Assembly (NCBI GenBank): GCA_043228905.1
Contig: JBHGNT010000018.1
Coordinates: 2,480,001-2,544,000, forward strand
DNA: 64,000 bases
Reading direction: 5' to 3'
From: Azolla caroliniana
Lineage: Eukaryota > Plantae > Polypodiophyta
Part shown: piece by piece, positions 15,905-46,410 of the stretch
How positions within the stretch are numbered: position 1 is the stretch's first letter
How the letters are laid out: each line of letters begins with the position of its first letter
Translations under genes and position numbers: made by a program
Notes under the pieces: generated by a model
Databases searched by the model: none
What the model was told of the DNA's origin: nothing
Seen by the model: only the letters and a program-made list of their open reading frames with translations

Positions 15905-15935
<31 letters not shown>

Positions 15936-16080
15936 GAAGAAGATGCTGCTGCTGCTGCTGCTGCTGCTGGTGAGAAGGAGGATGATGATTTTCTGTGGTT
16001 TTGTTTTCTTTGCTCTCGGGCCATGGTGAAGGCGATGGCGATGGCGATGGTGATGGCGATGGCGCCATGACACCTTTCAT
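7075..16080 (-). CDS. SPY: SPINDLY-type TPR O-fucosyltransferase (GT41), 17 coding exons, about 1036 aa
   Basis: GT-AG exons read on the minus strand: 15337-16080, 12888-13049, 12631-12806, 12456-12531, 10684-10812, 10474-10593, 9975-10043, 9801-9882, 9600-9694, 9452-9516, 8965-9163, 8687-8881, 8508-8602, 8270-8405, 7976-8193, 7607-7734, 7075-7496. They total 3111 nt, in frame. TPR repeats (PAYYNLGVVYSEM, AEACNNLGVIYKDRDN) are followed by SPY catalytic motifs (GYISPDYFTHSV, VDILVELTGHTANN, TFGSFNNLAK, LDTFPYAGTTTTCESLYMGVP). The start ATG is inferred (MKGVMAP). Confidence 0.95.
10070..10430. repeat. Diverged ~198-bp direct duplication in SPY intron 6
   Basis: The block tatgtttg.actcttcaaagt...tagtgctccaaca.tgatacagtt...gctga.atttcag occurs at about 10072 and about 10270. 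Confidence 0.85.
14160..14540. repeat. ~100-bp degenerate tandem repeat (3-4 copies) in SPY intron 1
   Basis: Recurrent gtggtactaa(g)aaa..gcaaggcttt / ttggattattca.cccattg / aatgctggttt blocks. Confidence 0.75.
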
Positions 16081-16167
16081 GTGTGTGTCTTCTTCTTCTT
16101 CTTCAGGAAGGAAGGAAGGAAGGAATGTATAGACAGACAAAAAACACAGACTACTGCGAAAAAAATC

Positions 16168-16201
<34 letters not shown>

Positions 16202-16253
16202 TAGTAGGGTGTGTGTGTGTGAGAGAGAGAGAGAGAGATAGAGAGAGAGTAGT

Positions 16254-16292
<39 letters not shown>

Positions 16293-16366
16293 TAGTAGGG
16301 TGTGTGTGTGAGAAAGAGAGAGAGAGAGAGAGTTGTGTGTGTGTGTGTGAGAGAGAGAGAGTAGTA

Positions 16367-16397
<31 letters not shown>

Positions 16398-16432
16398 AGA
16401 GAGAGAGAGAGTAGTAGTAGTAGTATGTAGTG
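16081..16432. repeat. Compound (GT)n(GA)n(GTA)n microsatellite directly upstream of the SPY start
   Basis: About five iterations of a GT-run / GA-run / GTA module; reads as CT/CA-rich on the SPY sense strand. Confidence 0.95.
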
Positions 16433-21011: not shown

Positions 21012-21255
21012 CATAGTATGAACCATATGTACCATATGTGCATTCGCATTCACGAATGATTCAATCATTCGAGTATGGTAAACACCCTAGAAGAATGGTA
21101 AATACCATACTTTTGGATTAACTATTTATTATGAGGTAAATAAACAAAAAAAAGGGGAAAAAAAACACACAAGAATGTTTGAATAACATTCGCATTCGTT
21201 TTCCAACTAGGAAAATGAATGTTATGCTAGACAAACACGAATTTTACGTACTATG
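21012..21255. mobile_element. hAT-like MITE, copy 2, with perfect 8-bp TSD
   Basis: TIRs CATAGTATGAA...TACGTACTATG flanked by GTTGCAAC at 21004-21011 and 21256-21263. An 8-bp TSD is typical of hAT. Confidence 0.85.
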
Positions 21256-24169: not shown

Positions 24170-25330
24170 TTTTTTTATTATTACACAAACATATGCCGTG
24201 GTATTATAAAATCATAAAAAATACAAAAGTTGTGTTGGATAAACAAATATACCAATGGACTCCCATGTACTCACATCATGGTCAATTTGATGTGTATATA
24301 CAAAAACCACACATATTTGTATACCATATCTCCAAGTCTACTCCTCCTAGATTGCAAATGATCATGCAATGTAGCCTATACCACTAACATTTGTAGCAAT
24401 AGAATCCATAAACTAAGTTAATAGACATTGTTTCCCAAAATGACGGGAACAATATACATCCATATTATGCAATCTCCATCTTCCCTAAAAATGAGCATTG
24501 AATCCCATAACCTTTTAAAATGCATTTGCTTCCAGAAAATAGCATCAACATTGCCCGTAAAACTTTCGTATTGACCACGTAATGTATGAATAAGCAGCAA
24601 CCAGAATTCAGCAAATATACCATAAGCATTGATCGTGAGTGACATTGTCAAAACCTTATATCCATCGCGCCTTCCGAATCATCCACCTAAGAATAGATGA
24701 AATTGTTTTCGAAATAATATATTTCTCTTTCTAATAGTATGTTATTTTGCCAACTATGGGTATTTCGAAAAAAGCCATTGTTGAACCGGCATTGGGATCC
24801 ATCATATTATCTTTGGAAACATCCACATTCTTTGTCTCAAACTAAATGTATTCAGTTTTTTCAATATTTTGTGAAGTTGGGATGGAAGTTGCTCTTAAGT
24901 AAGAAATCGTGTCCACCATCTGCTATGAAAGTGTGGTTGGCAAATGGGACCTCTTTAATGGATGCATCGAAATATTGGAAGTGGTTATGGAGTATGTGGA
25001 TTCCCAAGAAGATCATACAGTTTCACTAGTTATTGATGCATTATGCATTACCGGTTCGGGCCTGGTTACGGCAAATACATTGTAAGTCGTGTGGATTTGG
25101 ATGTGGTTGTATGACAGAATCAATTAAGAATGTGTTGTGGTCTTGTCCTAAAATTAAGTATGGAAGAGAGTTTTAAGGCTCTTAGTATTGATACATGCTA
25201 ATTGTGTGATCGCTTTGGGTGTTGTTAGGTGGGGCATTTTAGAGGGATGATTGTTGTTGTATGAAAAGGAGGATATAGTGCAAGTCTTTCACATAGTTCC
25301 TCCTCATGTACAAATGGTTCAGCCTTTTCT
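24170..25330. mobile_element. LINE ORF2 3'-end fragments in opposite orientations
   Basis: Minus strand 24418-24720 encodes the C-terminal AEFWLLLIHTLRGQY. Plus strand 24950-25330 encodes a zf-RVT-like WKWLWSMWIPKKIIQF...C..C...ESIKNVLWSC segment. Confidence 0.65.
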
Positions 25331-26885
25331 GTTTGACAGGTTTCAAATTAGGCACAAGGCAAGCAGTTTGACAATGCTCAATTATCACTCTCACTTGACT
25401 CATAATCAATAACGAATACAACGATCCACACCCCTTGGGAATGATATTGGCATAGAGACACAACTTTGTTGTGCTCAATGAGTACACCTTGACCCAATAC
25501 ATAGCATTGGAGGTGAGGTGTTCGATAAAGATTCCTCAGTCAAAATGGCCATTATGTGGCTTCTAGAAAATTTCTAGGGGATGTAAGATTAATGCCTTGC
25601 AATGTTTCCAATTTTGAGATCTACAATGGTGCAATATTGAGACTTGTGATGAGGATCCTTATGTTTTATATGATGTCCTTGTCATGTTAGACATCAAATA
25701 TTTTCTCATACCTCATAGCTTGATGGCAATGTAGATTTTCAAAGGGATGTGATAGGACGCGATGCTCCCTCCATGGTGATTATTCCAATAACGAAGATGT
25801 CGTAGAATCTTTGGACATTGCAATCACTACATAGAGGACCTTTAATAATATTGTACATTAGAAAGCTATTGATCATATATGCAATTGATGAACTTTGGTT
25901 GTGTAGGCTCTTAGTCCTTAGGATGTAGTCTCTCAACGTTTTTCGTGGCTTTCTATTTTATTGAGAACAATTAGTCTGTTGGGTTCCAAGTAGCATGTTG
26001 GAAAGAGAATTTTTGTAATGAACTCCTCATTAATTGGATTGCCTACACATTCACTGTTTAGAGATTCTACATCAATTCTAGGTTTCCATTTTGCAACCCC
26101 GTAATGAAGGGATTCTCCTAGACTGTGTTGGTTAAGGTTTTGACTTTGTGAGGTTTAATGTCTAGAAATATCATGTCTTTAGTTTGTCAATTTTTATGGG
26201 TATTGTGTGTGTAGAGTTTGAGGAACTTATACTCATGTTAAAGTCATAGTTGGAGTTATGTGTGTTTGGGTTTATTGTAACCTATTGGATGTGACTCCTT
26301 AATGCTCTTATGTGTGCTTGTCTATTCCATTCTTGTATATTTCCTTAATAGTTAATGTTAAGTGATTAAGTGAGCTTAAGTTCATTTGTGTGCATTTCGT
26401 TGTTAAGTTTAGGGCTTGATTTGCTCATTCTTTAGTGTTTTTTCATTGTCTTGGGAGCGGATTGACACCATCTCAAACTTGTCCCACCAACAATAGAGCA
26501 TACGTTGTCCCAACTCCCATAGATCTTGGTCCAAGGATAGTTAGGTAATGCTAAGTAGAAATTTTTGTGGAAAGTCCTAGGTGAGTGTTAGGGATGATTA
26601 ATAAGGGCTAGTTTTAGGGGCAAGTGATAGAGGAGAGGAATGGTAGATGTGATTGTTGGGGGTGTGTTGGAGAAAAATACTAAAGGTGAGTGCAAGTTGA
26701 GGATGACTCTAGGGGTAAGTGCTAGGGATGACTCATGAGTATAACATTATTTCCCTAAACAAAGATAAATTTCAAGGACATTAATAAATGCAATTAAAAG
26801 AAATTGATGGGAATCATGGTCAAAGTAAGGAGAAAACAAATTATGTCAAAGCATTCTAAAACAATTGATTTGAATCCATAAACAC

Positions 26886-28314
26886 TGTCAGGAACAGTAC
26901 TAAGACAGAGATGGAATTAGTACTAAAAGAAGTATTAGTACTAAGAGAGGTGAAGAACTCTCGAGAGAAGGAAATAGTGAGTGAGAGGGAGAGAGAGAGA
27001 TCGAGAGAGAGAGAGAGTGATGATAAGAAAAGATATATATTATGTGAAGAGAATGTACAATAGTACCTAGGAGGCTTAAGACTGGCGTTGAACCGATTTG
27101 GTTCGAAATAATGCCTTGTGCCTCCTTTTATAGTGTTCTGAGGAATACTCCTGAAGTTTCTAGAATGTTCCAGAGAGAGAGAGAGTGATGGTAAGAAAAG
27201 ATATATATTATGTGAAGAGAATGTACAATAGTACCTAGGAGGCTTAAGACTGGCGTTGAACCGATTTGGTTCGAAATAATGCCTTGTGCCTCCTTTTATA
27301 GTGTTCTGAGGAATACTCCTGAAGTTTCTAGAATGTTCCAGAGAGAGAGAGTGATGGTAAGAAAAGATATATATTATGTGAAGAGAATGTACAATAGTAC
27401 CTAGGAGGCTTAAGACTGGCGTTGAACCGATTTGGTTCGAAATAATGCCTTGTGCCTCCTTTTATAGTGTTCTGAGGAATACTCCTGAAGTTTCTAGAAT
27501 GTTCCAGAGAGAGAGAGTGATGGTAAGAAAAGATATATATTATGTGAAGAGAATGTACAATAGTACCTAGGAGGCTTAAGACTGGCGTTGAACCGATTTG
27601 GTTCGAAATAATGCCTTGTGCCTCCTTTTATAGTGTTCTGAGGAATACTCCTGAAGTTTCTAGAATGTTCCAGAGAGAGAGAGTGATGGTAAGAAAAGAT
27701 ATATATTATGTGAAGAGAATGTACAATAGTACCTAGGAGGCTTAAGACTGGCGTTGAACCGATTTGGTTCGAAATAATGCCTTGTGCCTCCTTTTATAGT
27801 GTTCTGAGGAATACTCCTGAAGTTTCTAGAATGTTCCAGAGAGAGAGAGTGATGGTAAGAAAAGATATATATTATGTGAAGAGAATGTACAATAGTACCT
27901 AGGAGGCTTAAGACTGGCGTTGAACCGATTTGGTTCGAAATAATGCCTTGTGCCTCCTTTTATAGTGTTCTGAGGAATACTCCTGAAGTTTCTAGAATGT
28001 TCCAGAGAGAGAGAGTGATGGTAAGAAAAGATATATATTATGTGAAGAGAATGTACAATAGTACCTAGGAGGCTTAAGACTGGCGTTGAACCGATTTGGT
28101 TCGAAATAATGCCTTGTGCCTCCTTTTATAGTGTTCTGAGGAATACTCCTGAAGTTTCTAGAATGTTCCAGAGAAATCTAGAATATACATCAATTTTCTA
28201 TAATAAAACATAAATGAAAATAATATTCTACGTATTACAATGTATGGTCTAATGGTCAAGAGCTCAACCCATGTAGCATAAGGTCATGGGTTTGAGTCTT
28301 GCCATATCATGACA
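26886..28314 (-). repeat. 3' LTR of the gypsy element, expanded to 1429 bp
   Basis: Same termini and sequence as 33099-33469, plus a tandem array and an extra ~50-bp segment near 28231-28282. Confidence 0.95.
27003..28174. repeat. Tandem array, 7 copies of a 166-bp LTR sub-unit
   Basis: Unit ends (gttcca) at 27172, 27340, 27506, 27672, 27838, 28004 and 28170. Copies 2-7 appear identical apart from GA-run length. Confidence 0.97.
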
Positions 28315-31300
28315 TTATCCCCCCTTTAAAACGACGAGTGTAATGAGTCGTTTTGGATTGAGGACCCGGTTTGTCTGGATATTGACAATGGAAGTCTTCA
28401 AGAAGAGCACGAGCATTGGTGACATTCTGTATCGGTTCCCAAGTACGCTCGCTGGGACTATATCCTAGCCAATCGACTAGATAGTAGAGCTTGTTGCGAA
28501 CAATCTTGGAATCAAGGATGGTGGCAACCTCGTACTCAGGTCCATCTTCAAGCTCGATCGGGGGTGGAGGCTGTGTAATACGTCCTGGGATGGTGCTCTC
28601 TTGATAGGGTTCGAGGAGAGAACTATGAAACACTGGATGTATCCGAAGTTGTGGAGGTAGATCGAGACGAAAAGCGACACCATTAATCTTTCCTATAATA
28701 CGGAAAGGACCTAATCGCCGATAATCCAACTTCTCGCATGGGCGAGTAGTCTTGATGTGTCGTCGTAGTAGCCATACCCAATCTCCAATGTTAAAACTGG
28801 ATGGGAGTCGATGACGATCCGCATAAACCTTGTTTGTTTGTTGAGCTTGTTGGAGATGAGTAGATAAATCTGCTTGTATCTTGCGTAACCGCTCCAAACA
28901 ATCCTCCGCGCAAGGATTTGTGGACACCTCTAGGGTTTCAAGTACACACCACCTGGGGTGACATCCCATATAAGCATAAAATGGCGTAACTTTAGTCGAT
29001 GTGTGGATAGAGTTATTATAAGCAAATTCGGCAAAGTGGAGAATATCTGCCCAGTCATCCTGATGATAGCTGAGAAAGCACCGCAAATACTTCTCCAGCG
29101 TTTGATTTGTTCGTTCAGCTTGGTCGTCGATTTGTGGGTGGTAGCTGGAGGAGAGGTTACAAGTGACCTTGATCATTTTAAAAAGGTGCTTCCAGAATTT
29201 TGACACGAACTGGGGTCCACGGTCGTTGATGATACTATCGGGAAGTCCATGATGCCGACATACTTCACGCATGACAATTTCGACACTGTCTTCACTGGAG
29301 ATTTCCTTAGTACAGGGCAAGAAATTAGCCATCTTCATATATCGATCTACCCCTGTTAGAATCGCATTGAACCCCTTAGAGACTGGAAGATCTGTGATGA
29401 AGTCTAGAGCAATGGATTGCCACGACTTGCTTGGAATTGGTAATGGTTCTAATAAACCATATGGATGATGCCTTGACATTTTCGCTCTACAACATGTATC
29501 ACAAGTCCGAACAAAATCTTCGACAAATTGTCGCATACGGGGCCACCAGAATGATCGTTGTACTAAATCTAATGTTTTAGTACTACCAAAATGCCCAGTA
29601 GTTTTGTACTACTCGAAGGCGGCAAGAACCATTAGGAACATACAAAAGTTCTTTAAAGAAGAGTAATCCATCATAGTATTTGAATTGCCGATAGTCCGTA
29701 TCTGGTGGTTGCGACTGTGAACACGACGCTCGAGAGGGATCAATTTGTGCTAGTATAGCTTGGGCGAAAGCATTTGTCTTCAGGTCTGCACGTATGATAT
29801 TGATAACGTGGGAATCCATGGGCATGCCAAAGACCTGTGTTGCTTGCAGTCGTGCCGGTCCCAAGATTACTTGCTTTTGGTTATCGAAAGCTAGCTCGCC
29901 GGGACGCGGTGCTAGGTACGAATGCCGTGATAATGCATCTGCTTTCCCTTGATGCTTCCCAGGTCGATATGTAATCTTGAAGTCGAAACACGTGAGAAAA
30001 TGGGCCCACCGAGCTTGACGTCGATTTAACACATGAGCGTCTTGAAAATAGGCGAGGTTTTTGTGGTCACTGAATATAGTGACTTGATGAGAAGATCCCT
30101 CTAGAAAATGCCTCCATTGCATAAAAGAGTCCACTATAGCCAATAACTCTTTATCATGAATTTCGTAGTTGATTTCGGTGGCGTCAAACTTGCGTGAGTG
30201 AAAAGCCACAGGATGTAGCTTTTCATCATTACCTCGTTGTGATAGAATGCTCCCCAATGCAAAATCTGATGCGTCTGCTTCGATGATGAATGGTTTTTCT
30301 GGATCAACGTGAGCTAGAATCAGAGCTGATGTAAATGCCTGTTTAAGATTCTCAAAAGCCATGTCCACTTCTTCAGACCAAACGAACGATTGTCCCTTCC
30401 TAGTAAGTTGTGTAAGAGGCAAAACGAGCTTTGAGTAATCCTTTATAAACTTCCGGTAAAAAATTGGCAAAGCCTAGAAAGCATTGCACATCCTGCACCG
30501 AACGTGGAGTCTGCCATTCTACCACCGTTTTGACCTTAGCTGGGTCAATGGAGATGCCTTCTGAGGAAATGACATAGCCGAGAAATTCCACATGGTTGCA
30601 CCCGAAACTAAAATTTTCCAGCTTTGCATAAAGACCATGTTCTCGAAGTCGTTTTAGTATTAACAGTACATGAGAATCATGCTCTTCTTGGGTCTTTGAG
30701 TAAACCAGTAGATCATCCAAATAGATGATTAGACACACATCCAAGAGATCTCGGAAAATATCATTTGCCATGTGCTGGAAGACTGCTGGTGCATTAGTGA
30801 GGCCGAATGGCATGACCGTATACTCGAAGTGCCCATATCTGGTGCGGAACGCGGTCTTCCATTCATCTCCTGGTCGGATCCGTACGAGGTTATAGGCTCC
30901 TCATAAGTCGATCTTCGTGAAGAACCTGGCACCATTGATCCGTTCTAAAAGACTTGAGATAAGGGGGAGTGCATACCTATTTCGGATTGTAACCTTGTTC
31001 AAGCCACGGTAATCTACAACGAGACGAAGTGAGCCATCCTTTTTCTTGACGAAGAAAATGGGTGCGCCGGTTGGAGATTTCGAATGTTGTATGAAACCAT
31101 TCTCCAAATTCTCCTCTATATAGGCTTGAAGGACTTCCAGTTCGGTTGGTGACAGATTGTAGGTCGGTCCCCATGGTGGCTCTTTACCCGGTTGTAAATC
31201 AATGGGGCAATCATATGGTCGATGGTGAGGAAGCGTATTGGCTTGTACTTTATCAAACACATCAACATAATGACGATACTTCTCTGGAAGTTGAACGGTG

Positions 31301-31887
31301 GATTCCTCTTTAGTGGTGCTGGAGGGTTTTACTGATATTGCGAAGAGGAACATTTCTTCCTTGCGTCCTTCCTCATGCAACTGATGTAGTGAAATCGTTG
31401 CAATCTCATGAGTAGACCCTCGGGCTTTTCGATGCCGTATTTCTCTTGTTCGCCAATCTATGTCTGGGTTATGTAATTCGAACCATGGTAATCCTAAGAG
31501 AATGGGGTGTTTTGGGATGCTAATTATATTAAATGATACGACACATGCCAGATTATCTAGGACAATATTAACGGGCTCTGACTCTTCTATGATATTTCCA
31601 GAAGCAATGGGACGACCATCAATGACTACTACAGAGGCAAGACACGGGAGTTTTCTGAGAGATATCTGATGATCTTGGGCAAATTTCCTATCCATGAAGC
31701 AAGAATTAGCTCCAGAATCTAGAAGTCCTAAGACATGTATTGGAGGAGTACTTTTAGTACTAAGTGTTACTTGGGCTACGAACACATTGCTAACTTGCTT
31801 AGAGGGAATGGAACCACTAATGGGCTGCACAGATCTAGGGCTGTCCAACCAAATGGCTCCTATTTTGGCTGGACTTAGTCGTTTAAC
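28307..31887 (-). pseudogene. Gypsy pol (PR-RT-RH-IN-chromodomain), disrupted
   Basis: ORF pieces 30901-31848, 30400-30813, 29583-30470 and 28307-29536, separated by a premature TGA and frameshifts. Confidence 0.93.
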
Positions 31888-32970
31888 TCTTCCTCTAACT
31901 GACTAAGGACATCAAATTTGTTTGCTAAATTTGGGCTATTAGTACTATTAGGACTATTAGATATCCCTACTCAAATAGACTCGGGTTTAGTACAATCAGA
32001 ACTAGCAACTATTTGGTTTCCCTGCCTTCTTGGCCTATGGGGACAGTTTACCGCGATATGCCCTGGTCCACCGCAATAAAGACATAGTCGGTTTGCTCGG
32101 CATCATTGCTTTTCTTCTTCCGATAGCGATCCACGACGACATGTGGTGTCAATTTCCATCGGAGTTGGAGTACTTACTGGAGGCGCATTATATGACTCCC
32201 TCGGAAAAGGTTTCGCTACCACTGAGGCGTAGGTAGGCTCTGATCTTGCCCTCAGAATCTGGAATTGTTGTTCCGAACGTTGTTCGAAGAGGCGGTTGTC
32301 GCATCTCACCGTGCGACTAATTGCTTATGTTAATGACTTTGGCTCTTCGGGGAAGGTCAAGAGTAAATCCTTGACATTGTTGCGTAAGCCATAACGGAAT
32401 TGTTCCATCAATGCGTGATCATCCCAAGGGATATCGGCAGCGAGTAGGCGGAAATCTGTAGTGTATGCGGAGGCTGGACGATCACCTTGGCGTAATCGCC
32501 AGATTTTGTTGATTGCAGTCCTTATGCTGTCAGTATCTCCAAAACATGCCTTAAACTCACTTATAAATTCTTCAAAACTGTTTAGTAATGGAGATTCCTT
32601 TTCCAACAATGGAGCAAACCATGCTAACGTTGAGCCACTAAGGAGAGTGCCTACTAGTCCCACTCGTGATGCATCAGTGGGATATTGAGAAGGATGCATT
32701 TGTATCACTAAACGTACCTGATTCAAAAACCCTTCTAAATTGTGATCGAGTCCCATCAAATTTTGCAGGAAGACCGATCTTGGGTTCTGTGTGAATCCCT
32801 TGAGTGCTTGATCCTTGTTGTTGTAATGATATGATAGTCGCTTCGAGTTGTTGTACACGTAACGTTAGCTCCCCATGTTGTTGTTGTTTTTCTAGCGCTA
32901 TTTGTTGAAGATCCCCCAACAAACAATGATTTTCTTGTTCTAGTGTTACAAATTTCTCTTTTAAGCACTA
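31875..32970 (-). pseudogene. Gypsy gag (retrotrans_gag domain plus CCHC knuckle), disrupted
   Basis: EPKIGLPAKFDG, LSGSTLAWFAPLLE, LRQGDRPASAY...FR and TPTPMEID motifs plus a CCHC knuckle. The gag frame ends ...[15 protein letters not shown]. Confidence 0.88.
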
Positions 32971-33098
32971 GAGCTCCGAGAAAACAGATTGGTATTCCTG
33001 AGCGCTAACAGTTTCCATTTTACTAGGGAGGATAAGAGGATTAATAAGAAGATAAAAGGAAGAGGAGGAAGGAAGATCGACCCAAAATCGGTTCAAAC

Positions 33099-33469
33099 TG
33101 TCAGGAACAGTACTAAGACAGAGAAGGAATTAGTACTAAAAGAAGTATTAGTACTAAGAGAGGTGAAGAACTCTCGAGAGAAGGAAAGAGTGAGTGAGAG
33201 GGAGAGAGAGAGAGAGAGAGTGATGATAAGAAAAGATATATATTATGTGAAGAGAATGTACAATAGTAGCTAGGAGGCTTAAGACTGGCGTTGAACCGAT
33301 TTGGTTCGAAATAATGCCTTGTGCCTCCTTTTATAGTGTTCTGAGGAATACTCCTGAAGTTTCTAGAATGTTCCAGAGAAATCTGGAATATACATCAATT
33401 TTCTATAATAAAACATAAATGAAAATAATATTCTATGGTCATGGGTTTGAGTCTTGCCATATCATGACA
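33099..33469 (-). repeat. 5' LTR of the gypsy element (371 bp) with TATA box
   Basis: TG...CA termini; TATAAAA on the minus strand at 33329-33335. Confidence 0.95.
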
Positions 33470-33659
33470 AACATAGTATTAAGACAATCTGAACGTTTTC
33501 CTTATTTATTGACATTTGGTATTCTAATAATGTGATTTTTTGTTTTTTTAAAGAAAGATGCACCTTAGTATATTACTTGAAAATTGTACTTAGAGAAAAT
33601 AGAAGGAGACATTTCATCTGATCAAACATATATGAAACAAGTAGAACAATACTATCAAG

Positions 33660-33960
33660 CTTCAGTTATGCAACATAAAAGAAGGTATGGCATAATTCCA
33701 CTTCAGACCAGTAGTTATATTAGAAAATAAGTGAAGTCCTTGCCATCGATTCTTAAAGGCCACTTGTTGTTGCCACAAAACATCATCTGAACCCTGTAGA
33801 TCATCATATTGACCACGTAGTGTGTGGACAAATAACATCCAAAATTCAATAAGCATAGTGCAGAGATGTATGTGAACATTGTTAAAAACATAATCACATC
33901 TTGCTTTCCATATTATCCAAAGAGCCAATGATGTAAGAGTGAATTACCAGATTTTTAATT
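33660..33960 (-). mobile_element. LINE ORF2 3'-terminal fragment
   Basis: ALWIIWKARCDYVFNN...EFWMLFVHTLRGQY, the same family motif as 24418-24651. Confidence 0.7.
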
Positions 33961-35039
33961 TTGAACCGTTCCAATAATGTGAATTATTACCATGGGATTC
34001 GATTTAAAACTTGATTGAGAGCGTTGAGCATTGTTCGAGGGTTTCATAATAGGGACACCAAAAGATATTTCACTTTTTGGAGTGTCCTACCCTAATGTTG
34101 ACAAGTGGGTCGGTACTAGTACTAGTATTATTGACTTAAAGAGAACATTGGTTTAATACTCTCAAACTAATCAAGTTATATATAACTTACTTAAATGATG
34201 TAATCCACATGGTCAAACAAAGTTAAACGATTATAGAATAGATATAAGCTAAGCCACATATCCTATAATTACAAATATAATCAACTTCATACAAGGGGTT
34301 CAAGTTTTTTATATGAAATGATTAAGACTTGGACACGTAGTTGGGAGGGATTAGGCTTTAAGGAGGGATCAAGAGATTAAACTCTACCTCTAAAATGAGG
34401 AGGTCAAGAAGAAATGGGAACAAAGGTAAAATTGACTCTTGTGGTTTTTATATTATCCTTGGGCCTTTTCAAACCCAAGTGCCCCATTTTTTCCCCTTTT
34501 CCTTGTTCCAAACTCATAACTTGGCTATAGATGTCTTTGTTTAGGCCCTAAATGCGAAGAAATAAACTGTACAAGAAGTAATTATCCCTCCTTTGGGACT
34601 TGTAATTCTAGATAAATAAGATATATATCCATAGAATCATAGGATAAATGAGCAAAAAAATAATGTTTGTAAATAGGAAGAACTAGTATCCTCTAACCAT
34701 TCCAATTTCTTATCTCTTTAGCATTTATTATCAAATAATCTCTTCTTGACTATGCATTCCATTGTTCATCTCCTTAAGCCAATGAGTGTATTAGGTTAGT
34801 GCGTTCATGAAGCTAAATGACTCTCAAGTGCCCCTTCACTAGATGCATGCTTGAGGGTAAGGGAGGATCAATTGATCTTTAAATGAGTGGGAATCTTTCT
34901 TAATCCTAGAATACAAGTCATCATCAAGGGGAATATTATGTCATCTACTTGTTCATATATCACATGTGGTCGGAGTTTATCATTATTGTCAAATAAGCCC
35001 ATGACAACCTACTATCAACAACCATGTTTCCCACCTAAA

Positions 35040-35719
35040 TGTTCGGAAACAGGTCCCTCCGGATGGGAAGTGAGAACAACAGTACTGATGAGTAAACTCG
35101 GCCGAGGCCAAAACCGAATGTGGACTACCCGGGTACGGAAGACTCGGTGAGAACCGGATGAGGAGTACCCGGCTACGGAAGACCTGGTGAGAACCATATG
35201 ACGAGTACCCGGCAAGAGCCGGATGGTGAAGGCCCGGTGAGAAGTGCTCACCGGATGAAGAGACATATTCGTAAATATGTTTTCTGAGAGTCCATCGGGG
35301 CTATATTTGTAAATAGACGAAAAGTCATATTAGTATAAATATGACTTAGGGCAAACTTAGTCGTTGGTTGAGAGTTGTTGTCATTCTTGTTGGTGCAAGA
35401 TTAGAGTGCGCAACCGTGTACAAAGAGAGTGAGAGAGAGGAAGAGGTTGTTGCCTCTGTTGTAACCGCCGCCTGTGGCGAAGATAGAAAGCTCGAGGTCA
35501 TTGCTTCGGTGCTTTACCATTTGTACATTCTGACATAGTGATAGTTTGCAGTCTGTGGGCTGCAGTGGTTTTTTCCCTAGTTTGGGTTTTTCCACGTTAA
35601 CATCCTATGTTCTCTTCTCTCCATTGTGCCGTGCATTCATTCCCGTTTTTTTTTCTGTGTTTTGATTCTAAGCTCGGTTGTGGCCGAGCGTTGTTCATCG
35701 GGAGCGTGTGTTCCTGTCA
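35040..35719 (+). repeat. Copia 5' LTR (680 bp; carries one extra 40-bp unit versus the 3' LTR)
   Basis: Matches 40404-41043; tacccgg...ggtgagaacc...gagtacccgg is duplicated near 35125-35210. Confidence 0.95.
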
Positions 35720-38004
35720 AAGTGGTATCAGAGCGAAATGACACAGAAAATGGATGATTCGTTGGGAGGCATGTTCAAGCTCACCGGCTCCAACTATTCG
35801 GTGTGGAAGTCGAAGATGAGGGACATGCTCGTGGTTAAAGATCTTTGGTTGTTGGTTCAGTTCAGGGACAAGAGACCGGACAAAATCGATGCCACGATAT
35901 GGGAGGTGATGCACATGAAGACAACGGCGTACATACGGTGTTTCATCGACATGAGTCTATACAACAACTTCAATGAAGAGAGCAAGGCTCATGAGCTCTG
36001 GGAGAAGATCGACATTATGTTTTAAAACAAAAATGTTGTTAATCAGGTTTTGGTATTCCGGAAGCTAGTAAGACTCTGGTACCAAGATGGCTCCAGCATG
36101 GCGGAGCACATGAATGCCTTCCAGGGGCTGATCCACCAGGCAACATCATTGGAAGTACCTCTTGCCAATGAGGTACTAGCACTACTCCTGCTCGGTTCCC
36201 TCCCAGATAGCTGGGAGACGTTGGTTGTCACCTTGGGCAACACCGGGCCGGAAGGGAAACGGTTATCCCTAGCAAGAGTGAAGTCGAGCTTGCTAGATGA
36301 GGAGGCACGTCGGAAAGATAAGGATACGAGCTCTAAGTCCAAAGCGTTCCTTACCGAATCGGAACGCGGAAGACAAAGGAACCGTAGTCCCCAGAACCGG
36401 GAAAAGTCGGGGATACGGTCAAAGTCAAGGCGGTTCGAGCAGATAACGGAGGTGAAATACCGGGGGCAGTTCGAGGAGTACTGTCGCTCGAAGGGAATCC
36501 GGCTCAAATTTACTGTGCCGAATACGCCGGAACTAAACGGGCTGGCCGAGAGGATGAACCAGACCATAATGGAGAGGGTTCAAAGTATGCTGGCGCATGC
36601 AAAACTACCCAAGAAGGTTTGGGCTGAGGCACTGTCAACGGCGACATATGTGATAAACAGATCACCCTCAGTACCCTTGGACGGAGACACGCCACAAAGA
36701 GTATGGACCGGTAAGGAAGTATCCTACCGGCATCTGAAGGTATTCGGGTGTCTTGCGTATGTGCATGTAGCTAAGGACCGGAGAGGAAAACTAGATCCGA
36801 AGACCCGGCCATGCATATTCCTCGGTTATGGCGACGATGAGTTCGGCTACCGAGTGTGGGACCTGGTCGACAAGAAGGTATTCCGGAGTCGAGATATTAT
36901 CTTCATGGAGGACAAGACACTCGCCAACTGGGAGTCGGAGAAGAAGATAATGAACTCCGAGTCGACCGGTAAGGATCGATTCTACGAGGAGCAGACCCAA
37001 CCGGCAAGAGACCGGTTAGCACTCGAGGAACCAACCGGTTACGGTGAGGATACCGAACCAGCAGAAGAAGAAGTAGAGGAAGTTGAAACCGGAACCGGCC
37101 AAGACCCCGAATCGGCTTCAGATGAAGAGCGAATGGAGGGCCCGGTTACCGAAGCCCAAAGACGGAGATATCCTCTCAGAGAGAGAAGGCCCCCCCGGAG
37201 ATTTCCAGATGCAGAGCATGTGCTGCTAACCGATGAGGGGGAGCCAGAAAGCTTCGTAGAGGCGAAGGATGACACCCACAACTGCAAATGGTTAAGTGCC
37301 ATGCAGGATGAGATGGATTCCCTGCATGAGAACCATACGTACGAATTGGTGGAGCTGCCGAAAGGAAAGCGGGCACTCCGAAACAAGTGGGTGTACAAGT
37401 TGAAACTGGGAGATGCCGGCAACCCCCCGAGATACAAAGATAGGATCGTGGTGAAGGGGTTCTAGCAGAAGAAGGGCGTGGACTTCGACGAGATATTTGC
37501 CCCGGTAGTAAAGATGACCTCCATCCGGATGGTGCCGAGTATAGCGGCAAGCATGGACCTCGAGGTAGAGCAGTTGGACGTGAAGACGACATTCCTTCAC
37601 GGTGACCTCGAAGAGGAGATCTACATGCAGCAACCAGAAGGATTCGTGGAGAAAGGGAAGGAGCGCTTGGTTTTTCGGTTGAAGAAGAGCCTGTACGAAC
37701 TGAAGCAGGCTCCCCGACAATGGTACCGGAAGTTCGACTCCTTATGACCGATCAAGAGTACCACAAGACACAGGCTGGTCACTTTGTGTTTGTGAACAAG
37801 TTCGAAGGAGGCGACTTCCTGATACTCCTTCTGTACATGGACAACATGTTGATTGTCGGACGGGACCAAGCCAAAATACGGATGCTGAAGAAGGTTCTCA
37901 ACTGAACCTTCGCGATGAAAGACTTGGGTCCGGCAAGACAGATGTTGGGGATGCATATCATCCGGAACCGGCCAACGAAGCAATTGTGGCTGTCACAGGA
38001 GAAA

Positions 38005-39812
38005 TACGTGACAAAGGTGCTTCAACGGTTCAACATGTCAGATGCGAAACCGGTCGGATCGACATTTCCGGCAAACTGGAGGTTATCCGGTAAGCAAAGC
38101 CCGAAGACAAAAGCAGAGAAGGTGGATATGATGAAGGTTCCATATGCCTCTGCCATCGGGAGTTTAATGTATGCAATGGTGTGTACCCGACCGGATATAG
38201 GATACGCAGTCAGAGTGGTGAGCCGGTTTATACGTGACAAAGGTGCTTCAGCGGTTCAACATGTCATATGCGAAACCGGTCGTATCGACATTTCCGGCAA
38301 ACCGGAGGTTATCTGGTAAGCAAAGCCCGAAGACGAAAGCAGAGAAGGTGGATATGATGAAGGTTCCATATGCCTCTGCCGTCGGGAGTTTAATGTATGC
38401 AATGGTGTGTACCCGACCAGATATAGGATACGCAGTCAGAGTGGTGAGCCGGTTTATACGTGACAAAGGTGCTTCAGCGGTTCAACATGTCAGATGCGAA
38501 ACCGGTCGTATCGACATTTCCGGCAAACTGGAGGTTATCCGGTAAGCAAAGCCCGAAGACGAAAGCAGAGAAGGTGGATATGATGAAGGTTCCATATGCC
38601 TCTGCCGTCGGGAGTTTAATGTATGTAATGGTGTGTACCCGACCGGATATAGGATACGCAGTCGGAGTGGTGAGCCGGTTTATACGTGACAAAGGTGCTT
38701 CAGCGGTTCAACATGTCAGATGCGAAACCGGTCGTATCGACATTTCCGGCAAACTGGAGGTTATCCGGTAAGCAAAGCCCGAAGACGAAAGCAGAGAAGG
38801 TGGATATGATGAAGGTTCCATATGCCTCTGCCGTCGGGAGTTTAATGTATGCAATGGTGTGTACCCGACCGGATATAGGATACGCAGTCAGAGTGGTGAG
38901 CCGGTTTATACGTGACAAAGGTGCTTCAGCGGTTCAACATGTCAGATGCGAAACCGGTCGTATCGACATTTCCGGCAAACTGGAGGTTATCCGGTAAGCA
39001 AAGCCCGAAGACGAAAGCAGAGAAGGTGGATATGATGAAGGTTCCATATGCCTCTGCCGTCGGGAGTTTAATGTATGCAATGGTGTGTACCCGACCGGAT
39101 ATAGGATACGCAGTCGGAGTGGTGAGCCGGTTTATACGTGACAAAGGTGCTTCAACGGTTCAACATGTCAGATGTGAAACCGGTCGTATCGACATTTCCG
39201 GCAAACTGGAGGTTATCTGGTAAGCAAAGCCCGAAGACAAAAGTAGAGAAGGTGGATATGATGAAGGTTCCATATGCCTCTACCGTCGGGAGTTTAATGT
39301 ATGCAATGGTGTGTACCCGACCGGATATAGGATACGCAGTTGGAGTGGTGAGCCGGTTTATACGTGACAAAGGTGCTTCAGCGGTTCAACATGACAGATG
39401 CGAAACCGGTCGTATCGACATTTCCGGCAAACTGGAGGTTATCCGGTAAGCAAAGCCCGAAGACGAAAGCAGAGAAGGTGGATATGATGAAGGTTCCATA
39501 TGCCTCTACCGTCGGGAGTTTAATGTATGCAATAGTGTGTACCCGACCGGATATAGGATACGCAGTCGGAGTGGTGAGCCGGTTTATACGTGACAAAGGT
39601 GCTTCAGCGGTTCAACATGTCAGATGCGAAACCGGTCGGATCGACATTTCCGGCAAACTGGAGGTTATCCGGTAAGCAAAGCCTAAAGACGAAAGCAAAG
39701 AAGGTGGATATGATGAAGGTTCCATATGCCTCTGCCGTCGGGAGTTTAATGTATGCAATGGTGTGTACCCGGCCGGATATAGGATACGCAGTCAGAGTGG
39801 TGAGCCGGTTTA
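38005..39812 (+). repeat. Tandem array, 8 copies of a 226-bp piece of copia RT
   Basis: Unit starts (tacgtgacaaagg) at 38005, 38231, 38457, 38683, 38909, 39135, 39361 and 39587. Copies differ by a few substitutions. Confidence 0.98.
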
Positions 39813-40403
39813 TGAGCAATCCCGGCAAGGAGCACTAGAACGCAGTCAAATGGATACTCCGGTACTTGAAAGGCACTTCAAATATGTGTCTTCGATTCGG
39901 CTCCGGAAAACCTCAACTTGACGGTTTTACCGATTCAGACATGTCGGTTGATGTGGATACTAGCCGGTCTACATCCGGGTATGTAATGACATATGCAGGG
40001 GGAGGTGTTTCGCGGCAGTCGAGGCTGCAGAAGACAGTTGCGCTGTCAACCACGAAGGCGGAGTACATGGCGGTTGTGGAAGCCGGCAAGGAAATATTAT
40101 GGATGAAGGACTTCATCGGAGAGCTCGGTATCCGGCAAGATGAATATCGGCTCTATTGTGACAGTCAAAGTGCCATCCACCTTGCTAATTATGTGGTCTA
40201 CCATTCCTGGACAAAGCATATCCAGCGAAGGTATCATTGGATCCGGGAAAGAGTAGATGACCAGAAGTTCGCGTTGACGAAGATCCACACGGCTGAGAAC
40301 GGGTCAGATATGCTGACCAAAGTACTGATACCCGACAAGCTGGATGCATGCCGGAAGCGGATCGGACTAGTAAGACATCCCATGCCGGAGTGAAGGGGGA
40401 GTT

Positions 40404-41043
40404 TGTTCGGAAACAGGTCCCTCCGGATGGGAAGTGAGAAGAACAGTACTGATGAGTAAACTCGGTCGAGGCTGAAACCGAATGTGGACTACCCGGCTAG
40501 GGAAAACCCGGTGAGAACCAGATGACGAGTACCCGGCAAGAGCCGGATGGTGAAGGCCCGGTGAGAAGTGCTCACCGGATGAAGAGACATATTCGTAAAT
40601 ATGTTTTCTGAGAGTCCATCGGGGCTATATTTGTAAATAGCCGAAAAGTCATATTAGTATAAATATGACTTAGGGAAAACTTAGTCGTTGGTTGAGAGTT
40701 GTTGTCATTCTTGTTGGCGCAAGATTAGAGCGCGCAACTGTGTACAGAGAGAGTGAGAGAGAGGAAGAGGTCGTTGCCTCTGTTGTAACCGCCGCCTGTG
40801 GCGAAGATAGAAAGCTCGAGGTCGTTGCTTCGGTGCTTTACCATTTGTACATTCTGACATAGTGATAGTTTGCAGTCTGTGGGCTGCAGTGGTTTTTTCC
40901 CTAGTTTGGGTTTTTCCACGTTAACATCCTGTGTTCTCTTCTCTCCATTGTGTCGTGCATTCATTCCCGTTTTTTTTTCTGTGTTTTGATTCTAAGCTCG
41001 GTTGTGGCCGAGCGTTGTTCATCAAGAGCGTGTGTTCCTGTCA
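40404..41043 (+). repeat. Copia 3' LTR (640 bp)
   Basis: TG...CA, preceded by the PPT and followed by the CTAAA TSD. Confidence 0.95.
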
Positions 41044-44000
41044 CTAAACATTACATTATTGACTATCACCTTCGCTTGCATGTGGTAATGGAAGGGGATT
41101 AACGTAAGTCACAACCAACATGCGTTTGTAGAGTTCAAGAAGGCTTTAGAGACACTCAGAAGGGCCGAATTATAAGGAAGAATGGAAAAAACTTGGAATA
41201 CTAACATGCATGAAAGTGTGTTAAAGAAAAACAAAGGCTTTTGTAGAGCGTTCATTAGCACCATGTGAGTGAAATGAGGATAACCTCCATCGCCTACTCT
41301 ATTTATTGACAAAACATAAAGAGTTCAACCAAGAATATGTGGAAAACCCATCCATTGGGCATTTCACAATATTGCTTTTAATTTTTGCAATGAATATTGT
41401 AATTTTGGCATATTCAAAATTGAGATAACAAAAGCTTTTTACATATGGTTCATACTTTTTGTGAACGTTAGTGGCTTGACTATCAGCATGGCTAAAAATA
41501 TAGTCATGGTCATGAGCATTCACAAAATTAAAACTAAGTCAAGAAGGTATGGTGTACTATTGAGGAGATGCATGGCCTTTTGTGTATGTTAATGTACCGG
41601 TCTCGTAGTCTGTCATTGCTCTCTAGCATATAATCCAACAAGACAATGATGGAAGCAACATTGTGGTGGCATTGCTTTATCTTTTTTCGAATGCATGACA
41701 GTATTAGGACAAGCAACAATAATTACTTGAGGTTATATAATTGAAGGATTTAGAAGAATAATTAATAAGCACAAGATTAGTCAGGAATTGACTCACTCTC
41801 CACCTCCTCATCCATTCATCATGGTTGTTCCTATCACTGTTTATAAGTTGGAGGGAGAGGAGGGGTTAAAGAAGTAGATAATGGCAACAACTAGGTGATA
41901 ATTGAGACAATTGTGTCAAATATTTTGAGATTGTGACGTCATTAATTTGATGCTTTCATTTGGCATGCAATATGTCAACTCTCTTGTCTTTGTATGAGGT
42001 TTCCCAACCTTTGAATTGTGATTAAGCAAAAATAATGGAGGAACAAGGCAATGGTGAACCTTTATTACCTGACAATATCCAATATTTACGATATCAAGTG
42101 ACATGCTTAGTGAGCAAAGGGCAAGAATGACGGGTACAAGCAATGGCAATTTCTGGCTTACATCGAACAATTGATTGTGGCATCAATGAAGCAATAGTTG
42201 AGATGCTTGAGTCAATGTTTTTGAGATTGTGAGACCATTAGTTTGGCACCCTTGTTGTGGCATGTAGTGAATGGGAAGCTACATATGATGCAACAAAGGT
42301 TTTAGCTTACCCACCAACGTAAGTCCATTACCATAAAAAGTAAAAAAAGATAAGGAAAGGGGAAAGAAAGGAAAAGACTAATTTTATCATTTCCCTTACA
42401 TAACTATGGGTATCTTCATCAAATTTCCTTATATACCCTTAGGTTTATTTATGAAGTATTTGGAATGCTCATTATGTTATGAAATCAATTTGATTAATAT
42501 ATTTGTATTTTGATGTATATATTTGGAAGCAATCAAACGCATCATAGCTTTGCCCAATGCATTTCTTATAGATCACTCCACACATGAGTTATGTCTTTTT
42601 TTACAAGGGAAGGCGAACCATGTGCAAATCATTTTGCCCAATGCATTTCTTATAGATCACTCCAAGCGAGCTTCCTTAAGGGGAGCATGTAGGGCAAGAG
42701 ATCAAACGTCTCTAATAAGAAACAATTCAATCTAGGTAGAGCTAAGAATACAAACTATGTAGGGTTGTTACACTCGAATTTTGGAAATACCACACGCGTG
42801 TCTCTAATAAGAATCTATTTGATCTAGGTAGACCTAAGAGTAGAGCATCTAATAAGAATCTATTTGACCTAGGTAGAGCTAAGGGTAGATGTTTTGCCAT
42901 AAGAAACGATGAACATATGGTGAGCCATTATTGATTGTACGTGTGAGGAATCCATAGGAATTAGATGTTTCAGGATTCAAGTAAAAATACCTTAATTGGT
43001 ACACAATACAAAAACCTCCTATCTTTATATTATGATTAAAAGAGACACTAATTTGGCTCCGATATTGATTTCCCTCATCATCATCTTGATTCCACCTCAT
43101 TACATAACATTTTGTTAATGGGGTCAACAATTTCTATATTCAAGACTCTCACACCCGAGATGTCATGGCCATCTAATGTTATGTCTCGACTTTACCTTGA
43201 AGGGTTGAACCCCAAGTTTTGCTTTTCACAATGCAATGATCATTAAGGAAATAAGAGGAATAAACTAACAATAGCAAAAGCAATAAGAGAAGGGTGCTCA
43301 AATATACACTTTTATGTATTAGAAATTCAAAAAGTACCTTTGCGTTCCACTCCTACAAATAGATTCCTCAAAGAATCAAAATCAAAATCGGTAAAAAAAT
43401 TCTTCTAACTAGAAAGTAGGCATTGTTCTAACTTCTAACTTGAGATAGAGTTAGAAGCTTCATTCGTTACTACAAGGTCATTGACGTACACTTTTCATGT
43501 TGTTAAGATCATAAATCAACACACAAAAGGATTCGACACCGGAGTAAATCCATTTTTGTTAGTAGAAGGCTGAAGTTCATTGATGTGTGCTTAATCTTAA
43601 ATTTCATTTGATTAAGAACATGCTTTAATAGTAGCAACCACATGTTCTTGATAAGTGACCACATACATGTGTTTTCCTTAATAATAATAATAACAAGATA
43701 GTAGCAAACAATAATAATGGGTAGAATTATAACCAGTACTGACATTAATTATAGCAACAACGATAGCAATAATAAGAATTGTAAAATAGTGATAGCAATA
43801 ATAATGGTAAAGTGAAAACCTTAGCGTAGCCAACAATGGGTTTATTATTTCTCCAGATGCCCCTATGCATTTTCGTTATTCCCCACGAAAAAATGCCCTT
43901 CAATTTATGAATAGAGAGACTACTTTTGAGAAGAAATGTGCGAGTCGGGACTACTATCATATAGAACTGCAAGTCAAAATAGCAAAACATGAGAGAGGGT

Positions 44001-44560: not shown

Positions 44561-45190
44561 AGAGAGAGAGAGAGAGAGAGAGATCACCATATCCACTCCC
44601 GCACGCTGATTTTGCATATTTATTATCTACCCTTCTCTCTCTCTCTCTCTCTCTCTGCCAATGGCTTCGTAACCCTAACCCTAACCCTAACCCTAACCCT
44701 AACCCTATTCCTAAGCACTGGCATACCTGCAGTGTCCCAATCGCCTCATTGGATCGAAACACCCCTCACTCCTCACCCTTACTTACCAGATTGCCATAAC
44801 TCCTGTCTCTACCCACCCAATTGGCTCATCGTTGCAAAACCCTAAAGCCCATTTCTCTAATGCTAAACCGCACACAAATCCCATATCTCGATTTTTAGTC
44901 CGCCACCATCTCATCTTTCTAATTTAATCTGCTACCGCCACAATCCCCAAATCCTAACCATTTTGACTCTAGACATTACCATTCACTCTCTCGAATCGGC
45001 AGTTACAGGCGGAAATCCTAACCTAATTACCCTAAACCCTAGTAATCCTTAAATTTATTAACTCTAATTAAGCTAATTCCAATAACTCTAATTACCCTAA
45101 ATCAAATAGCCCCAAGCCTAATTACTCGTAACCCTAACTAACGAAGCTAGGCCCTGATATCTCTAAACCCTAATCTAACCTATCCTGGTT
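44561..45190 (+). promoter_or_regulatory. NAC upstream region with GA/CT repeats, (AACCCT)6 and scattered telo-box-like motifs
   Basis: (GA)n 44561-44583, (CT)n about 44634-44656, (AACCCT)6 44671-44706, and AAACCCTA-type motifs near 44837, 45034 and 45165. The function is inferred. Confidence 0.5.
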
Positions 45191-45192
45191 CA

Positions 45193-46410
45193 ATGGCAGG
45201 CAGGCACAACATAATGGATCTTCCGCCGGGCTTCCGCTTCCACCCAACGGACGAGGAGCTAGTAGCGTTCTATCTCCACAGGAAAGCCACAGGTCTGGAC
45301 ATCCCGGCCGACATAATTGCAGAAATCGATCTGTACAAGCACGATCCATGGGAGCTTCCGCGTTTCTCGTCTTGCATCAAGAACGCTTCTGTTGCTACAA
45401 ACCCTAACCCTAACCATAACCCTGACCATGACCATAACCATGACCATGACCATGACCATGACCATAACCCTAACCCTAACCATGACCATGACCCTAACCC
45501 TAACCATGACAATAACCATAACTCTGACCATGACCATAACCATAACCATAACCATAACCATAACCATGACCATGACCATGACCATGACCATGACCTTCAT
45601 CATCATCATAACAACAACAGCAGTAACAACAATGGGCAACAACAATGCTTCTTCTTCAATTTCTCAGACAAGAAGTATCCGAGAGGATCAAGGACGAACA
45701 GGGCCACAGTGTCAGGGTATTGGAAGGCGACAGGGAGGGACAGGAGGGTGTTGGCACGAGAGGACATGGTGGGGATGAAGAAGACATTGGTCTTTTACAA
45801 GGGCAGGGCCCCAAGTGGAGAAAGGACGGATTGGGTCATGCATGAATACCACCTCTTGGTACGAGACTCTCGCGGTTTTGCCCCTCCCGACCAATCGTCT
45901 CGCGACACGTCATCATCGTCGTGCCCCGCACCCCCTCTCGGAGTTGGCCTCGAGAACCCCGGACAACATTACCCTGGGTCCTCGACCACTGGACACCACC
46001 ACCCTGGGTCCCCTAGGAAGTGTCACGTGGACACCCGACACATGGAACAACATGTCAATAGTACCGAATTACATGTCAACTCTTGCTCCTACCCACACTC
46101 TGGTCAGGAACCCTCGTCCTCGCGCCCTGCCTCTCCTGCCAAGGTTGCAACCCCCCACTCAAATTCGTCCCCTAGGTCGTCCTTCTGCATCAGACACCCC
46201 ATGGTCATCTGCCGCATCATTCACAAGAAGAAGAAGAACAAGAGGAAGAATAATATAATATGTCCTCGAGCTAACAGTATCCCCCCCACCATTACGCGCG
46301 CGACCCTTCCTCAACTCGTCTCCCCTAGCTCCCCTGATCAACCTCACCTCTCCCCCCTTAGAGATGACAATGACAACAATGATGGAAGTGACATTGATCA
46401 TGATGAGTAA
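45193..46410 (+). CDS. NAC-domain transcription factor, single exon, 405 aa, with expanded linkers
   Basis: Subdomain A LPPGFRFHPTDEELV, B IAEIDLYKHDPWELP, C KKYPRGSRTNRATVSGYWKATG, D VGMKKTLVFYKGRAPSGERTDWVMHEY and E VICRI, all in one open frame. Confidence 0.88.
   Translation: MAGRHNIMDLPPGFRFHPTDEELVAFYLHRKATGLDIPADIIAEIDLYKHDPWELPRFSSCIKNASVATNPNPNHNPDHDHNHDHDHDHDHNPNPNHDHDPNPNHDNNHNSDHDHNHNHNHNHNHDHDHDHDHDLHHHHNNNSSNNNGQQQCFFFNFSDKKYPRGSRTNRATVSGYWKATGRDRRVLAREDMVGMKKTLVFYKGRAPSGERTDWVMHEYHLLVRDSRGFAPPDQSSRDTSSSSCPAPPLGVGLENPGQHYPGSSTTGHHHPGSPRKCHVDTRHMEQHVNSTELHVNSCSYPHSGQEPSSSRPASPAKVATPHSNSSPRSSFCIRHPMVICRIIHKKKKNKRKNNIICPRANSIPPTITRATLPQLVSPSSPDQPHLSPLRDDNDNNDGSDIDHDE
45400..45633 (+). 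repeat. Coding hexamer repeat (AACCCT/GACCAT/AACCAT) encoding NP/DH/NH dipeptides
   Basis: Directly visible; lies in frame between NAC subdomains B and C. Confidence 0.95.

What the first reader, a model, noticed from the sequence alone, without database searches (positions are those of the whole stretch)
27003..39812. Two neighbouring, unrelated LTR retrotransposons each carry a 7-8-copy internal tandem array of nucleosome-scale units
Seen: a gypsy LTR with 7x166 bp and a copia RT with 8x226 bp lie about 10 kb apart. Both are head-to-tail, join at short microhomologies (GAGA; AT), and the host sequence resumes normally after the last copy. Known: plant satellites can arise from retrotransposon segments. 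Inference: two independent events of similar copy number in one window, plus many smaller duplications, suggest an active local amplification process (rolling-circle or eccDNA reinsertion, repeated template switching, or unequal exchange) caught at the stage of satellite birth.
Basis: partly seen in the sequence, partly recalled or inferred. Interest (0 to 1): 0.8.

Follow-up and report, generated by a model that had tools for sequence, protein, structure and literature searches.

The report
Two private tandem arrays in retrotransposons
Two broken jumping genes 10 kb apart in a plant genome each carry a 7-8-copy tandem repeat that arose after they inserted and apparently at different times, likely from a repair-made duplication that then grew by out-of-register copying; this is a known kind of event, and whether the two are neighbours by chance remains open.

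Summary
Both arrays are real: 7x166 bp in one LTR of a chromodomain gypsy, 8x226 bp in a copia RT. Both arose after insertion. The gypsy's other LTR has one unit; an unplaced contig (C979) holds the same copia insertion with one unit. They are not one burst: copia copies carry 26 private changes, gypsy copies 2-7 none (7 expected, P about 0.001). A 3.7-kb copy of the gypsy end on C14 has the same junction but 3 copies, so copy number changes in whole units. Neither junction has spread with its family. Two-copy duplications are common here (26 in 1.2 Mb), with no peak at nucleosome length, but private arrays of 5 or more copies were 0 in 120 stretches, so chance pairing is neither shown nor excluded (0.009 to 36 pairs expected per genome). 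Best reading: microhomology break-repair duplication, then fast out-of-register expansion (0.6); single-step rolling-circle copying remains possible (0.25), since six copies in each array share one private substitution. 'Satellite birth' is unsupported. The scan noted retrotransposon-derived arrays in other genomes, not this locus. Known kind; modest interest.

The parts
26886..33469 (-). Ty3/gypsy element with chromodomain; LTRs 26886-28314 (3') and 33099-33469 (5'); target-site duplication AACAC/AACAT; gag-pol in several stop-to-stop pieces
   Evidence: gag, protease, RT, RNase H, integrase, Chromo PF00385
27006..28174 (-). Array 1: 7 x 166 bp in the 3' LTR; copies 2-7 identical; copy 1 differs at 27023 (A, against G in copies 2-7); each unit holds the LTR's TATA-like box
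33099..33469 (-). 5' LTR with a single unit; 5 differences in 371 aligned bases from the 3' LTR, plus a 50-bp deletion
24531..28869 (+). Stretch copied to G000:C14:11255236-11258910 (6 substitutions in 3675 bases), where the array has 3 copies
35040..41043 (+). Ty1/copia element; LTRs 35040-35719 and 40404-41043 (20 differences in 640); target-site duplication CTAAA; PBS TGGTATCAGAGC; PPT; broken gag-pol
38004..39813 (+). Array 2: 8 x 226 bp in the RT; 26 private changes; unit position 54 is T in copies 2-7 and G in copies 1 and 8; 226 is not a multiple of 3
36427..36433 (+). Junction of a deletion of about 980 bp between gag and integrase, found only here; absent from the C979 copy of the same insertion
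41044..41173 (+). 3' host flank shared with contig C979, which identifies C979 as the same copia insertion with one unit

Best explanation
Each array arose in chromosomal DNA after its element had inserted, likely in two steps: repair of a nick or break joined the ends at a 2-5 nt microhomology and made two copies, and the two copies then likely mispaired out of register (sister-chromatid exchange, slippage or re-annealing during repair), adding whole units quickly. Shown: post-insertion origin, private junctions, whole-unit change in copy number (3 on C14, 7 here), different divergence. Inferred: the repair step, the out-of-register step, the direction 3 to 7, and reading divergence as age. 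The two events are independent and separated in time; their closeness is either chance or a lasting break-prone region, which I could not decide.
For: Post-insertion: one gypsy LTR only; LTR pair differs at 5 of 371 while copies 2-7 differ at 0 of 996 (6.7 expected, P=0.001). C979 is the same copia insertion with one unit and lacks two changes (positions 76, 160) shared by all 8 copies, so it is not a collapsed array. Junctions private: copia 7 of 7 hits in the array; gypsy 6 in the array, 2 on C14, 1 unrelated, of 9. Seeds are common: 26 two-copy, 7 three-copy, 3 four-copy arrays in 1.2 Mb; 3 other close pairs among 1079 gypsy motif sites, one of them not a clean head-to-tail repeat, and 1 among at least 625 copia sites. 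C14 reads A,G,G at the marker, as a 3-copy stage predicts. Precedent: a 408-bp unit at 2, 3 and 5 perfect copies with a 3-bp microhomology in grape clones (PMC7464560, passages); tandem duplications as the commonest 50-200 bp insertions in rice (PMC7971508, passages).
Against: C14 could be a contraction from 7, which would say nothing about stepwise growth. The copia pattern G-T-T-T-T-T-T-G needs a change in the middle copy at the 3-copy stage and then has probability 0.06-0.17 in my simulation. The copia copies are close to star-like (shared changes P=0.015 with even site rates, 0.10-0.44 with uneven rates), so few intermediate stages left marks. Both marker changes (G>T, A>G) are not the methyl-C type that makes up 20 of 26 private changes. 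A geometric fit to 2-4-copy counts predicts only about 20 arrays of 7 or more copies per genome and 0.009 such pairs, so simple stepwise growth plus chance under-predicts what is seen.
Confidence: 0.6

Rival explanations
1. Single-step rolling-circle copying: a 166- or 226-nt circle or loop made from the locus itself, carrying one error or lesion, was copied round six times during repair of a break; C14 would be a later contraction.
For: In both arrays exactly six copies share one substitution found in no relative examined (T54: 0 of 22 loci; G: 0 of 21 LTR sites read). Star-like copia copies, identical gypsy copies. No private arrays of 5-6 copies in 1.2 Mb.
Against: A simple one-ended invasion would mark 7 of 8 copia copies, not 6 (inference); G in both end copies needs staggered ends or mismatch repair. 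C14 shows whole-unit change by ordinary means. The template was not a sister element: all 8 copies carry the locus's own changes at 76 and 160. No circle was observed.
Confidence: 0.25
2. Arrays made during reverse transcription (repeated template switching or a circular RNA) and inserted with the element.
For: The copia array's 26 changes are not distinguishable from the 34 expected if it were as old as the LTR pair (P=0.36). The mechanism is hypothesised for Ogre 3'UTR repeats (PMC7004042, passages).
Against: The same insertion on C979 has one unit and lacks the array's shared changes. The gypsy array is in one LTR and far younger than the insertion. No AG/GT splice signals at the copia unit ends on either strand. 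No sister carries either junction.
Confidence: 0.03
3. Assembly artefact inflating copy number.
For: Gypsy copies 2-7 are identical; no raw long reads were available.
Against: Copia copies differ by methyl-C-type changes. The gypsy junction recurs on C14 with its own substitution. A 1.2-kb array is short for long reads (own knowledge).
Confidence: 0.05
4. Not exclusive with the above: 24.5-41.2 kb is a lasting break-prone region, which explains the pairing.
For: Within 17 kb: two arrays, the donor stretch for C14, a 630-bp inversion, a 980-bp deletion in this copy of the copia and a 540-bp deletion in the C979 copy, a 50-bp LTR deletion. Private long arrays were 0 of 120 stretches.
Against: Neighbouring 240 kb are not enriched. 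Deletions are usual in old plant LTR elements (own knowledge), and I measured no background for them. The window was chosen because it looked striking; at rates of 0.3 per Mb or more a chance pair is expected.
Confidence: 0.35

Closest known systems
Grape 'Teinturier' GCE repeat (PMC7464560; passages read)
   Same: A private few-hundred-bp unit with a short microhomology, present as 2, 3 and 5 perfect head-to-tail copies; authors propose nick-repair duplication followed by somatic slippage.
   Different: It lies in a gene promoter and has a phenotype; here the units lie in retrotransposons, reach 7-8 copies, and no effect is known.
Patch-repair tandem duplications of rice (PMC7971508; passages read; the primary papers PMC4020087 and PMC4932966 were not held)
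   Same: Head-to-tail duplication of 50-200 bp at little or no homology as the commonest small insertion.
   Different: Described as two-copy events in the passages read; multi-copy growth was not covered there.
Maize CRM1TR/CRM4TR (PMC3648361; passages read)
   Same: Tandem repeats derived wholly from a segment of one LTR retrotransposon, begun by illegitimate recombination.
   Different: Those are LTR-UTR units in centromeric regions, amplified much further; centromeric position was not tested here, and one unit is coding RT.
Ogre/Tat 3'UTR repeats that seed Lathyrus satellites (PMC7004042; passages read)
   Same: Short arrays inside LTR elements as possible raw material for satellites.
   Different: Those arrays travel with the family at a fixed position; these two are locus-private. 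This genome does have family-borne arrays (146 bp and 83 bp units at about 40 loci scored each).

Membership tests
Satellite DNA | Long arrays (tens of kb or more) | tested here: not met
   1.2 and 1.8 kb
Satellite DNA | Spread to further loci or concerted homogenisation | tested here: not met
   Copia junction only here; 26 private changes left unhomogenised; the gypsy's only second site is a passive segment copy
Family-borne internal tandem repeats (Ogre/Tat type) | Array shared by sister elements | tested here: not met
   Junction and motif-pair scans
Repair-born tandem duplication with later multiplication | Head-to-tail whole units with 0 to few nt microhomology | tested here: met
   AT and AGAGA; 7.0 and 8.0 copies
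Repair-born tandem duplication with later multiplication | Single-copy ancestral state at the same site | tested here: met
   Other LTR; C979
Repair-born tandem duplication with later multiplication | Alleles or copies with intermediate number | tested here: inconclusive
   3 copies on C14, direction unknown; none seen for copia
Rolling-circle / eccDNA reinsertion | Circle bearing the junction | not testable with these tools
   No circle-enriched data
Rolling-circle / eccDNA reinsertion | Block of copies from one template | tested here: inconclusive
   Six marked copies in each array, also reachable stepwise
Ty3/gypsy chromovirus | RT-RH-INT order with chromodomain, LTRs, target-site duplication | tested here: met
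Tcn1 clade of chromoviruses | Self-priming site in place of a tRNA site | tested here: met
   Predicted duplex between the bases after the 5' LTR and the bases about 30 nt after the TATA-like box, -22.9 kcal/mol, no shuffle control; feature from PMC6317226 (passages)
Tcn1 clade of chromoviruses | Placement in an RT tree | not tested
   No tree built
Ty1/copia | gag, integrase, RT order; tRNA-Met-type PBS; PPT | tested here: met
   the tRNA-Met label of the PBS is recalled

The most novel reading that the evidence does not exclude
A stretch of about 17 kb has twice, at widely different times, undergone one-step rolling-circle amplification from a roughly 200-nt circle of its own DNA carrying a single lesion or error, stamping six marked copies each time: a fragile site that records the nucleation step of tandem arrays.
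Probability: 0.12. Interest if true: 0.7.

Novelty: new member of a known kind. Interest (0 to 1): 0.33.

Why it matters
How a two-copy duplication becomes a multi-copy array is an open step in satellite origin; PMC7004042 (passages) says little evidence ranks the proposed mechanisms. This locus is a small natural record with rare controls: a one-copy ancestor for each array, a 3-copy snapshot, marker substitutions and two ages. It shows that such arrays can stall and decay (copia). It would matter more if a census showed that marked blocks of internal copies are the rule, or that such arrays cluster. As it stands it adds an example, not a mechanism.

Tried and rejected
Public runs: all 20 listed were contigs, not reads. 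Four were laid on 25500-41500 and four on a gypsy junction; none of the 32 pieces shown bridged the junction, 486 were not shown, and contigs drop rare variants in high-copy families, so this is uninformative. C979 does not reach the gypsy locus: beyond window 35544 it runs into other sequence, so its being the allelic haplotype is likely, not shown. Back-splice signals at the copia unit: none. Strong hairpins in the units: weak (z -1.8 and -2.1 against plain shuffles). Sister element as template: rejected. Nucleosome-length preference: counts fall steadily, 17, 13, 11, 5, 3 in 40-bp bins from 60 to 260 (54 arrays). The two long arrays in the sample (146x9.6, 83x9) first looked like background for private arrays but are family-borne. 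Literature: 9 searches; one search returned nothing; I saw no listing describing marked internal-copy blocks in retrotransposon arrays or rolling reverse transcription inside LTR elements, but the library lacks most subscription papers, so this is no claim of absence. PMC11566620 passages added nothing. No supplements were read.

Full report
Observation. Tandem Repeats Finder finds 7.0 x 166 bp at 27006-28174 (99%) and 8.0 x 226 bp at 38004-39813 (97%). The window is G000:C18:2480001-2544000 of a 523-Mb genome; a NAM domain marks it as a plant. The first array is in the 3' LTR of a minus-strand gypsy element with a chromodomain, the second in the RT of a plus-strand copia element; both have two LTRs and 5-bp target-site duplications. 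Junctions share AGAGA and AT with the ancestral ends.

The junctions are private. The copia junction (up to 1 mismatch) occurs 7 times, all in the array. The gypsy junction occurs 9 times: 6 here, 2 on C14, 1 unrelated. A motif-pair scan of the gypsy LTR family gave 11 matches: 6 here, 2 on C14 and 3 other two-motif loci, among 1079 exact motif sites; one of the three is not a clean head-to-tail repeat. The copia scan gave 8 matches: 7 here and one two-copy 210-bp duplication, among at least 625 sites. Exact matching makes these lower bounds.

Gypsy array. Copies 2-7 are identical; copy 1 differs at one base (A, against G) and junction 1 has one more AG. All 21 sister LTR sites that my pattern read, from 32 loci examined, have A. 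The two LTRs differ at 5 of 371 bases, so an array as old as the insertion would carry about 6.7 changes in 996 bases; it has none (P=0.001). The array is therefore much younger than the insertion, or recently homogenised. C14:11255236-11258910 is a copy of window 24531-28869, ending inside the integrase region and lying amid other retroelement pieces. It differs at 6 of 3675 bases (one search lists 7; one is the copy-1 allele misplaced by the gap) and has 3 units reading A, G, G, with its own change in unit 2. The window holds the whole element, so it is the donor (inference). Copy number has changed by four whole units; the direction is unknown.

Copia array. Against copy 5 there are 26 changes besides position 54, 20 of them C>T or G>A at CG/CHG sites. 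Position 54 is T in copies 2-7 and G in copies 1 and 8 and in 22 of 22 other loci examined (of 39 other matches listed). The 26 changes match the 34 expected at the LTR pair's rates (P=0.36), which first suggested origin during reverse transcription. That fails: one of the 22 loci, on contig C979, is the same insertion (same 130 bases of 3' flank) with a single unit, and it lacks two changes (positions 76 and 160) that all 8 copies share. So the array arose after insertion and after the two versions parted; 2 shared plus 3.25 private changes per 226 bases (2.3%) fits the 13 of 504 and 12 of 590 window-only changes in the flanks. Each version has its own deletion (about 980 bp here, private; 540 bp on C979). 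Unexplained: copy 1 and C979 share A at 106 and 152, either recurrent CpG decay or a short conversion tract.

Ages differ. At the copia array's context rates the six gypsy copies should carry 7.0 changes; none is seen (P=0.0009). One contemporaneous burst is rejected unless the gypsy array was homogenised.

Background. In 120 grid-sampled 10-kb stretches from C1-C22 (1.2 Mb; a few grid points and several chromosome ends not sampled), arrays of period 100-500 and at least 90% identity number 26 with two copies, 7 with three, 3 with four and 1 with ten. The ten-copy array and an 83x9 array are family-borne, as are two of the 3-4-copy arrays (L122); the rest were not checked genome-wide. Private arrays of five or more copies: 0 of 120 stretches, under 2.5 per Mb. 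The 24 neighbouring stretches (240 kb) hold 4 two-copy and 1 three-copy array, plus an older 89x8 array at 85% whose privacy was not tested. Expected pairs within 11 kb per genome range from 0.009 (geometric fit) through 0.26 and 4 to 36 (upper bound). Unit lengths show no nucleosome peak.

Mechanism. Shown: post-insertion origin, microhomology junctions, whole-unit change, different divergence. Inferred: a repair-made two-copy seed, as is common in this genome and reported for rice (PMC7971508, passages), then fast out-of-register expansion, as proposed for the 2-, 3- and 5-copy grape alleles (PMC7464560, passages). Against it, the G-T6-G pattern has probability 0.06-0.17 stepwise, the copia copies are nearly star-like, and both arrays have six copies marked by one non-deamination change, which a single circular template would give. 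I put stepwise at 0.6, rolling-circle at 0.25, artefact in the gypsy count at 0.05, reverse transcription at 0.03, the rest unassigned. Laying public contigs did not test the junction.

Known context. Retrotransposon-derived tandem repeats are described in maize (PMC3648361, passages) and Lathyrus (PMC7004042, passages). These two arrays work like the seeds in those accounts but fail the tests for satellite DNA and for family-borne repeats. Earlier scan notes showed no report on this locus and similar arrays in other genomes; I used them as leads only. Verdict: real, a new member of a known kind, with unusually good internal controls; interest 0.33.

Noticed in passing
window 24723-25352: A 630-bp segment is inverted relative to 5 of 5 relatives of the dispersed repeat it belongs to; the C14 copy carries the same orientation.
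   Followed up: partly
G000:C14:11255236-11258910 (L077, L078): Recent 3.7-kb interchromosomal copy inserted into a copia-like gag, with unrelated sequence on the other side; looks like templated filler at a break.
   Followed up: yes
window 33082-33098 and about 33290-33305: The gypsy has no tRNA-type site by eye; the bases after the 5' LTR can pair with the bases about 30 nt after the TATA-like box, as in self-priming Tcn1/Tf1 elements. The 166-bp unit contains this stretch and the TATA-like box, so seven such boxes point out of the element towards lower coordinates.
   Followed up: partly
L143:1314-2710 (C4) and L210:2487-3228 (C16): Two family-borne arrays, 146 bp and 83 bp units, each at about 40 scored loci with near-identical units; better candidates for the Ogre-type route to satellites. 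Host elements not identified.
   Followed up: partly
window 35112-35213: The copia LTR has a 40-bp unit at 2.5 copies in the 5' LTR and one fewer in the 3' LTR; related 40-54 bp arrays vary across the family.
   Followed up: no
L105 (C8:5311924-5312641): 383-bp head-to-tail duplication spanning host flank and most of a gypsy LTR, 4-nt microhomology, 1 mismatch.
   Followed up: partly
L223:5122-5843 (C18, about 60 kb left of the gypsy array); L228:2957-4100: Neighbouring arrays: 89 bp x 8.2 at 85%, and 382 bp x 3.0 at 99% in a dispersed repeat.
   Followed up: no
window 44670-44707 and 45400-45595: Telomere-like (TAACCC)6 and a 6-bp repeat inside or beside a NAM-domain reading frame at 45151-46410.
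   Followed up: no
window 14968-16512 and 49024-50094 (minus strand): Two long frames with TPR matches; the second also matches the SRP72 RNA-binding domain.
   Followed up: no
window 2749-2948 and 21066-21255: About 200 bases repeated 18.3 kb apart at 88-89%; possibly LTRs or dispersed repeats.
   Followed up: no
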